Of a stretch of DNA of 64,000 nt, positions 24,533-27,500 are shown piece by piece. The number at the start of each line of letters is the position of its first letter. The first letter of the stretch is position 1. This DNA is from the human T2T-CHM13v2.0 reference genome, Homo sapiens. Below the pieces are notes generated by a model, which was not told the origin of the DNA, did no database searches, and saw only the letters and a program-made list of their open reading frames with translations. A program made the position numbers and the translations under genes. The DNA lies in NCBI RefSeq assembly GCF_009914755.1, contig NC_060931.1; one strand, 5' to 3'.

Positions 24533-27500
24533 TCAGTTCCCACCTATGAGTGAGAATATGCGGTGTTTGGTTTTTTGTTCTTGCGATAGTTTACTGAGAA
24601 GGATGATTTCCAATTTCATCCATGTCCCTACAAAGGACACGAACTCATCATTTTTTATGGCTGCATAGTATTCCATGGTGTATATGTGCCACATTTTCTT
24701 AATCCAGTCTATCATTGTTGGACATTTGGGTTGGTTCCAAGTCTTCGCTATTGTGAATAGTACCGCAATAAACATACGTGTGCATGTGTCTTTATAGCAG
24801 CATGATTTATAGTCCTTTGGGTATATACCCAGTAATGGGATGGCTGGGTCAAATGGTATTTCCAGTTCTAGATCCCTGAGGAATCGCCACACTGACTTCC
24901 ACAATGGTTGAACTAGTTGACAGTCCCACCAACAGTGTAAAAGTGTTCCTATTTCTCCACATCCTCTCCAGCACCTGTTGTTTCCTGACTTTTTAATGAT
25001 TGCCATTCTAACTGGTGTGAGATGGTATCTCATTGTGGTTTTGATTTGCATTTGTCTGATGGCCAGTGATGATGAGCATTTTTTCATGTGTCTTTTGGCT
25101 GCATAAATGTCTTCTTTTGAGAAGTGTCTGTTAATATCCTTTGCCCACTTTTTGATGGGGTTGTTTGTTTTTTTCTTGTAAATTTGTTTGAGTTCATTGT
25201 AGGTTCTGGATATTAGCCCTTTGTCAGATGAGTAGGTTGCGAAAATTTTCTCCCATTTTGTAGGTTGCCTGTTCATTCTGATGGTAGTTTCTTTTGCTGT
25301 GCAGAAGCTCTTTAGTTTAATTAGATCCCATTTGTCACTTTTGGCTTTTGTTGCCATTGCTTTTGGTGTTTTAGACCTGAAGTCCTTGCCCATGCCTATG
25401 TCCTGAATGGTAATGCCTAGGTTTTCTTCTAGGGTTTTTATGGTTTTGGGTCTAACGTTTAAGTCTTTAATCCATCTTGAATTAATTTTTGTGTAAGGTG
25501 TAAGGAAGGGATTCAGTTTCAGCTTTCTACATAAGGCTAGCCAGTTTTCCCAGCACCATTTATTAAATAGGGAATCCTTTCCCCATTGCTTGTTTTTCTC
25601 AGGTTTGTCAAAGATCAGATAGTTGTAGATATGCAGCATTATTTCTGAGGGCTCTGTTCTGTTCCATTGATCTATATCTCTGTTTTGGTACCAGTACCAT
25701 GCTGTTTTGGTTACTGTATCCTTATAGTATAGTTTGAAGTCAGGTAGCGTGATGCCTCCAGCTTTGTTCTTTTGGCTTAGGATTGACTTGGCGATGCGGG
25801 CTCTTTTTTGGTTCCATATGAACTTTAAAGTAGTTTTTTCCAATTCTGTGAAGAAAGTCATTGGTAGCTTGATGGGGATGGCACTGAATCTATAAATTAC
25901 CTTGGGCAGTATGGCCATTTTCACGATATAGATTCTTTCTACCCATGAGCATGGAATGTTCTTCCATTTGTTTGTATCCTCTTTTATTTCCTTGAGCCGT
26001 GGTTTGTAGTTCTGCTTGAAGAGGTCCTTCACATCCCTTGTAAGTTGGATTCCTAGGTATTTTATTCTCTTTGAAGCAATTGTGAATGGGAGTTCACTCA
26101 TGATTTGGCTCTCTGTTTGTCTGTTATTGGTGTATAAGAATGCTTGTGATTTTTGTACATTGATTTTGTATCCTGAGACTTTGCTGAAGTTGCTTATCAG
26201 CTTAAGGTGGTTTTGGGCTGAGACAATGGGGTTTTCTAGATATACAATCATGTCATCTGCAAACAGGGACAATTTGATTTCCTCTTTTCCTAATTGAATA
26301 CCCTTTATTTCCTTCTCCTGCCTAATTGCCCTGGCCAGAACTTCCAACACTATGTTGAATAGGAGTGGTGATAGAGGTTTCAAAGTTTTCCTTTGAAAAC
26401 TGTCTTGTGCCAGTTTTTCAAAGGGAATGCTTCCAGTTTTTGCCCATTCAGTATGATATTGGCTGTGGGTTTGTCATAGATAGCTCTTATTAATTTGAGA
26501 TACGTCCCATCAATACCTAATTTATTGAGAGTTTTTAGTATGAAGCGTTGTTGAATTTTGTCAAAGGCCTTTTCTGCATCTATTGAGATAATCGTGTGGT
26601 TTTTGTCTTTGATTCTGTTTATATGCTGGATTACATTTATTGATTTGTGTATATTGAACCAGCCTTGCATCCCAGGGATGAAGCCCACTTGATCATGGTG
26701 GATAAGCTTTTTGATGTGCTGCTGGATTCGGTTTGCCAGTATTTTATTGAGGATTTTTGCATCAATGTTCATCAAGGATATTGGTCTAAAATTCTTTTTG
26801 GTTGTGTCTCTGCCTGGCTTTTATATCAGCATGATGCTGGCCTCAGAAAATGAGTTAGGGAGGATTCCCTCTTTTTCTATTGCTTGGAATAGTTTCAGAA
26901 GGAATGGTACCAGTTCCTCCTTGTACCTCTGGTAGAATTCGGCTGTGAATCCATCTGGTCCTGGACTCTTTTTGGTTGGTAAGCTATTGATTATTGCCAC
27001 AATTTCAGAGCCTGTTATTGGTCTATTCAGAGATTCAACTTCTTCCTGGTTTAGTCTTGGGAGGGTGTATGTGTCAAGGAATTTATCCATTTCTTCTAGA
27101 TTTTCTAGGTTATTTGTGTAGATGTTTGTAGTATTCTCTGATGGTAGTTTGTATTTCCATGGGATCGGTGGTGATATCCCCTTTATCATTTTTTGTTGCG
27201 TCTATTTGATTCTTCTCTCTTTTCTTACTAGTCTTGCTAGCGGTGTATCAATTTTGTTGATCCTTTCAAAAAACCAGCTCCTGGATTCATTGATTTTTTG
27301 AAGGGTTTTTTGTGTCTCTATTTCCTTCAGTTCTGCTCTAATTTTAGTTATTTCTTGCCTCCTGCTAGCTTTTGAATGTGTTTGCTCTTGCTTTTCTAGT
27401 TCTTTTAATTGTGATGTTAGGGTGTCAATTTTGGATCTTTCCTGCTTTCTCTTGTGGGCATTTAGTGCTATAAGTTTCCCTCTACACACTGCTTTGAATG

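What the first reader, a model, noticed from the sequence alone, without database searches (positions are those of the whole stretch)
24640..27260. Roughly 2.6-kb near-identical tract shared by inverted L1-A and L1-C
Seen: 24640-27260 is almost the reverse complement of ~52860-55480. The ORF fragments are near-identical (122 aa, 131 aa, 616/614 aa), including the same frameshifts, while both 3'UTRs and ORF1 starts differ. The tract has older-type residues (GSEI, YLK) where L1-B has GAEF and YFK, which suggests C-to-A transfer. Inference: a tract this long is unusual for ectopic conversion and could be the footprint of recurrent inversion of the intervening ~20-25 kb followed by recombination between orientations.
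Basis: partly seen in the sequence, partly recalled or inferred. Interest (0 to 1): 0.75.

Follow-up and report, generated by a model that had tools for sequence, protein, structure and literature searches.

The report
One LINE-1 overwrote its inverted neighbour
Two dead LINE-1 copies facing each other 25 kb apart in a human chromosome 7 pseudogene share a 2.4-kb stretch that is 99.8% identical, likely because one was recently copied onto the other by DNA repair, an ordinary kind of exchange that may or may not have involved flipping the DNA between them.

Summary
A (24864-27291, minus) and C (52824-55254, plus) differ at 4 of 2428 sites plus one 3-bp indel, against 4-10% elsewhere; 0 of 5000 shuffles match this. 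They share 33 private substitutions and several indels. The direction is C to A by old/young diagnostic sites. There is also an older A-C tract (~0.6 kb) and a probable B-C tract (~0.3 kb). Paralogs show the interval in ancestral orientation, and A and B keep their TSDs. C has no TSD: it is a chimera on a 9.4-kb deletion, so the proposed TSD-swap test cannot work as written. No inversion is listed here in the two human tables searched. A known polymorphic inversion on chr13 has the same L1 mosaic. Verdict: non-allelic homogenisation between inverted L1s, a new member of a known kind. One-step long-tract conversion (0.5) narrowly beats an inversion intermediate (0.4).

The parts
24313..30353 (-). 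L1-A, full length, young type (lacks the ~128-bp 5'UTR segment); recipient; ORFs broken
   Evidence: site empty in 3 of 3 paralogs examined
24302..24316 (-). 3' TSD of A (15 bp)
30354..30368 (-). 5' TSD of A, matching the 3' copy
24864..27291 (-). Core tract in A, C-derived; 4 substitutions and one 3-bp indel vs C
24641..24863 (-). Shoulder of the tract in A (5/224 mismatches vs C 55255-55478)
27950..28560 (-). Older second A-C tract (5 mismatches in ~610 bp vs C 51555-52165), C-derived
   Evidence: 0 of 5000 shuffles
30354..49642 (.). Interval between A and C; same orientation as both flanks relative to the chr7:35.2 Mb paralog; holds no annotated DPY19L1P1 exon
   Evidence: hub gene table
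39257..45185 (-). L1-B (to 45172) with intact 13-bp TSDs (39257-39269 and 45173-45185), young type; site empty in 4 of 4 paralogs
44765..45064 (-). Probable B-C tract in the 5'UTR (2/300 mismatches vs C 49739-50038; 6 shared private states); B coordinates approximate
49643..55820 (+). L1-C, older type (keeps the ~128-bp segment at 50407-50535); donor; chimera on a ~9.4-kb deletion junction, no TSD pair
49643..49645 (+). 5' junction of C, with a 3-base microhomology to the left deletion breakpoint
52824..55254 (+). Donor segment of the core tract in C
53719..53741 (+). Private hairpin-like insertion shared by C and A
54310..55856 (+). Span matched by the 1.5-kb truncated L1 (c0) of the chr7:29.84 Mb paralog; C shares its 3' junction

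Best explanation
A 2.4-2.6-kb piece of L1-A carries the sequence of the oppositely oriented L1-C, likely because a break in A was repaired off C by long-tract non-allelic gene conversion without a lasting crossover. Shown: the shared tract, C as donor, no change of orientation in this haplotype, and a second older A-C tract. Inferred: the repair route; an age of roughly 0.8-1.6 My (95% range 0.2-4.2 My under two recalled mutation rates), so probably human-specific; and repetition, at least twice into A and probably once into B. C itself likely formed earlier by L1-L1 recombination between a full-length insertion and a 1.5-kb truncated copy 9.4 kb downstream. The copied segment carries frameshifts, so no coding gain is expected.
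For: Identity and permutation. In the core, 33 private substitutions are shared, against 3 A-only and 1 C-only; in the 657 bp before it the counts are 0, 6 and 10. At strict old/young sites A is old-type at 6 of 6 in the core and young-type at 6 of 7 outside the two tracts (Fisher p=0.005). A carries 2 states otherwise seen only in C and its progenitor c0. Ancestral orientation and intact A and B TSDs. No reciprocal swap. No inversion row at this place. Long conversions exist. A chr8 head-to-head pair has a 9/1000 patch with no inversion row found.
Against: Sperm non-crossovers are 99% short (mean 31 bp), yet A and C show long tracts with no clear excess of scattered shared states (4 singletons for A-C, 3 for B-C, 4 for A-B). 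All three tracts are in inverted pairs. The closer, more similar direct pair A-B has no cluster of shared private states, although its best 500-bp window reached 180 of 5000 shuffles. Plain conversion should not care about orientation. The chr13 inversion pair shows the same pattern. Reference copies were few: 3 young and 5 old in the strict test.
Confidence: 0.5

Rival explanations
1. Inversion intermediate. A crossover between A and C near the 3' edge would invert the ~19-25 kb between them. An allelic crossover inside the left repeat of an inversion heterozygote would then restore standard orientation and leave C sequence in A between the two crossover points, with C unchanged.
For: By reasoning it predicts multi-kb tracts, no reciprocal swap and intact TSDs, as seen. 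It explains why tracts occur only in inverted pairs. The chr13 pair has 2 mismatches in its best 2400 bp and is a polymorphic inversion (6 of 88 haplotypes; 11 heterozygotes of 65), reported as recurrent. L1 pairs flank 22 of 132 repeat-flanked inversions. C's origin suggests L1-L1 crossovers happen at this locus.
Against: No inversion row here among 44 samples or 65 samples (file cut when stored; samples overlap), nor in 2 of 2 chr7 rows of the human-chimp list. It needs two events. All three tracts have C as donor or probable donor, where both directions are expected (weak, n=3).
Confidence: 0.4
2. Assembly artefact: reads of A and C were mixed in the reference.
For: The copies are similar and close; no second assembly could be examined here.
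Against: Four substitutions and a 3-bp indel remain inside the tract, and there are two tracts of different identity. Each element is only 6 kb, with distinct flanks. The chr13 pair, a validated real structure, looks the same.
Confidence: 0.04
3. A was born chimeric, by reverse-transcriptase template switching onto a C-like RNA, or both copies came from one source element.
For: Chimeric L1 insertions are known (recalled).
Against: A has 3 private substitutions in 2411 core sites but 6 in the adjacent 657, so the tract is much younger than A. The shared segment carries frameshifts, and states shared with the local c0.
Confidence: 0.03

Closest known systems
HsInv0341, chr13 inversion between inverted 6.2-kb L1PA3 copies (PMC3961182 passages; rows at CHM13 chr13:79.05-79.07 Mb; equating the two rests on size plus a recalled build offset)
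   Same: Head-to-head full-length L1s about 20 kb apart; patchy homogenisation with runs over 1 kb and divergent ends; the listed breakpoint interval is ~2.5 kb.
   Different: It is a validated polymorphic, recurrent inversion and none is listed here. Its copies are one type and 98.4% alike overall; A and C are different types and 97.4% alike overall.
Interlocus (non-allelic) gene conversion between duplicates (PMC10172114 section 7)
   Same: One-way replacement of an acceptor by a paralogous donor over kilobases.
   Different: That survey covers segmental duplications, mostly of high identity, among human haplotypes. Here donor and acceptor are independent L1 insertions 4-5% apart, and polymorphism is untested.
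L1 recombination-associated deletion (L1-L1 NAHR; class recalled; L1-L1-flanked deletions described in PMC12350158 passages)
   Same: C is a chimeric L1 without a TSD pair at a 9.4-kb deletion.
   Different: The intermediate with both L1s was not seen; a one-step extension of c0 with target deletion is not excluded.

Membership tests
Non-allelic gene conversion | Local tract far more alike than the rest of the two copies | tested here: met
   4/2428 vs 4-10%; 0 of 5000 shuffles
Non-allelic gene conversion | Shared derived states absent from outside copies | tested here: met
   33 shared private substitutions and shared indels
Non-allelic gene conversion | One-way, non-reciprocal transfer | tested here: met
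   A old-type at 6 of 6 core sites; no stretch with C young and A old; one haplotype only
Non-allelic gene conversion | No crossover at the event | tested here: inconclusive
   Flanks unexchanged today, but the two-step inversion route gives the same end state
L1-mediated recurrent inversion | Long, highly similar inverted repeats at both ends | tested here: met
L1-mediated recurrent inversion | Both orientations observed in humans | tested here: not met
   No row in the tables searched; the same tables list the chr13 control; rare alleles not excluded
L1-mediated recurrent inversion | Inverted orientation in apes | tested here: inconclusive
   Not in Lee 2008 chr7 rows; ape T2T tables too large to read; gibbon supplement search uninformative
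L1-mediated recurrent inversion | SNPs shared between orientations | not testable with these tools
   No population haplotypes available
L1 recombination-associated deletion (for C) | Chimeric L1 without its own TSD pair, with sequence missing against an outgroup | tested here: met
L1 recombination-associated deletion (for C) | Pre-deletion allele with both L1s | not testable with these tools
   The paralog holds c0 but an empty site at C's 5' end; ape orthologs not available

The most novel reading that the evidence does not exclude
This is an uncatalogued, rare or extinct toggling inversion inside DPY19L1P1. C has swapped orientation with both A (~19-25 kb) and B (~4.5 kb), each round leaving a C-derived tract. 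More widely, kilobase homogenised tracts between inverted L1 neighbours in a single reference would then be a fossil record and predictor of cryptic inversions.
Probability: 0.3. Interest if true: 0.5.

Novelty: new member of a known kind. Interest (0 to 1): 0.3.

Why it matters
The exchange has left a 2.4-kb, 99.8% identical inverted pair with a 1004-bp perfect run, a likely substrate for future inversion. It makes A a mosaic that would mislead subfamily and age assignment. The locus is a compact case of layered L1-L1 recombination: one deletion chimera and two or three tracts. Phenotypic stakes look low, since the interval is intronic in a pseudogene, though it holds or abuts RefSeq enhancers on the three L1 5'UTRs. 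If the inversion route is right, such tracts could be mined genome-wide to find missed inversions.

Tried and rejected
GSEI/YLK as direction markers: rejected, present in a young copy. A net inversion in the reference: rejected by paralog collinearity. A third-locus donor: none above 97% among 41 scored hits, not exhaustive. An A-B tract: no cluster of shared private states; its best window lies where unrelated copies are also most alike. A fourth tract at C 50136-50373 (2/156 mismatches): only one shared private state, not claimed. One reference copy (L037) matched only 333 bp and added little. Paper searches: DPY19L1P1 + inversion gave one paper on the duplications (parts 1-2 of 6 read); two searches for L1 conversion tracts gave nothing relevant. 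The published Porubsky 2022 paper was not held; only passages of its preprint were seen, not its tables. The 1,019-genome spreadsheet search showed no inversion list (cut when stored). The gibbon supplement search returned only unrelated ids in the places shown.

Full report
Observation. The window holds three near full-length L1s: A 24313-30353 (minus), B to 45172 (minus) and C 49643-55820 (plus). A and C differ at 4 of 2428 sites plus one 3-bp indel between A 24864-27291 and C 52824-55254. A 224-bp shoulder has 5 mismatches. Elsewhere they differ by 42/861 in ORF1, 26/664 just before the tract and 30/314 at the 3' end. None of 5000 shuffles reached 4 mismatches in 2400 bp. The 19 other pairs among seven full-length copies, the chr13 pair set aside, had 53-82. 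The tract carries 33 substitutions found in A and C but in no outside copy covering those sites (at least 6 of 8 per site), with 3 A-only and 1 C-only. It also carries shared small deletions and a hairpin-like insertion.

Direction. A, B and two other chr7 copies lack a ~128-bp 5'UTR segment that C keeps; I recall this as the mark between older and younger L1PA3-era elements. I fetched seven copies found with that segment; one matched only 333 bp and two are a non-independent chr13 pair. At sites where all young references agree and 5 of 5 old references carry another base, A is old-type at 6 of 6 sites in the core and young-type at 6 of 7 outside the tracts (p=0.005). With relaxed sites the core gives 14 old, 5 young and 1 other, the same in both copies. 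So C was the donor.

More than one event. A second A-C tract (C 51555-52165) has 5 mismatches, 5 shared private states and 0 of 5000 shuffles. It is about five times more diverged, so probably older. B and C share a 300-bp 5'UTR stretch with 2 mismatches and 6 shared private states; this is weaker (23 of 5000 shuffles within the UTR, 205 of 5000 over the whole element), and its direction rests on only the chr13 pair. The direct pair A-B has 4 scattered shared states and no cluster. Four substitutions in 2428 bp give 0.8 or 1.6 My under two recalled rates, range 0.2-4.2 My.

Orientation. The locus lies in the chr7 DPY19L low-copy repeats (PMC1475853, parts 1-2 of 6 read). Window 17400-24316, 30356-37604, 38016-39269, 45200-49645 and 55840-60900 all match the chr7:35.15-35.29 Mb paralog on the same strand and in order. 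A's site is empty in 3 of 3 paralogs examined and B's in 4 of 4. Both keep matching TSDs. The reference is therefore not net inverted.

C is a chimera. The closest paralog (chr7:29.84 Mb) has a 1.5-kb truncated L1 (c0) with its own TSD and the same 3' junction as C. Then come 9.4 kb absent from the window, then C's 5' flank with no L1. c0's site is empty in the 35-Mb paralog. C's 5' junction has a 3-base microhomology. C shares 6 private states with c0, and A carries the two that lie in the core, which agrees with C as donor. The likely history is a full-length insertion followed by L1-L1 deletion; a one-step extension of c0 is not excluded.

Inversion. No row for this place was found in Table S1 of PMC10150506 (44 samples; searched rows only) or in the inversion sheets of PMC12350169 (65 samples; file cut when stored). 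Both list a similar-sized L1-flanked chr13 inversion. If those sets had power here, 0 of 130 haplotypes bounds the frequency at about 2%. The human-chimp list of PMC2603318 has 2 chr7 rows, neither here. Ape T2T tables could not be read. Against dismissing inversion: the chr13 pair, which I identify as HsInv0341 (reported recurrent; PMC3961182 passages), has the same mosaic, with 2 mismatches in its best 2400 bp and divergent ends. By reasoning, one inversion plus one allelic crossover inside the left repeat of a heterozygote gives exactly the present state. A chr8 head-to-head pair has a 9/1000 patch and no inversion row found; a chrX opposite-strand pair is 97.4% alike over 955 bp. These pairs were picked for equal scores, so they show recurrence, not frequency.

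Tract length. Sperm non-crossovers are mostly about 31 bp, with 0.9% long, mean 1,220 bp (PMC13600919 passages). Putative interlocus conversions in duplications average 6.26 kb (PMC10172114 section 7). A 2.4-kb tract is thus rare for ordinary meiotic conversion but within the known range for non-allelic exchange.

Verdict. Non-allelic C-to-A homogenisation is near certain. The route is open: one-step long-tract conversion 0.5, inversion intermediate 0.4. No paper on this locus's L1s came up, but the class is well known. The interval is intronic in a pseudogene and all ORFs are broken. New member of a known kind; interest 0.3.

Noticed in passing
window 37596-38016: A ~355-bp L1 3' fragment (minus) followed by an Alu-like end sits at a junction that skips ~49 kb of the chr7:35.2 Mb paralog (35218554 to 35267550); it may be an insertion-associated deletion or a duplication-module junction.
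   Followed up: partly
window 22956: A clean jump of ~52 kb against the chr7:35 Mb paralog (35156586 to 35208534).
   Followed up: no
window 23646-31092: A inserted inside an element bounded by two ~380-bp LTR-like repeats; ~1.57 kb of its interior is missing 45 bp from A's 5' end, and the second repeat is interrupted at 30760-31053. Family not determined.
   Followed up: partly
window 55821-55848: A 16-base non-L1 stretch and a second poly-A follow C's tail and are shared with c0 in the paralog; possibly a tiny 3' transduction.
   Followed up: no
L040 and L041 (G000:C8:99.82 and 99.86 Mb): Head-to-head full-length L1 pair with a ~1-kb patch of 9 mismatches against 95.4% overall; no inversion row found in two tables.
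   Followed up: partly
L042 and L043 (G000:C23:122.89 and 123.07 Mb): Opposite-strand L1 pair ~170 kb apart, 97.4% alike over the 955 bp compared.
   Followed up: partly
window 41383-41560 and C 53383-53503: B has a 120-bp internal deletion in ORF2; B position approximate.
   Followed up: no
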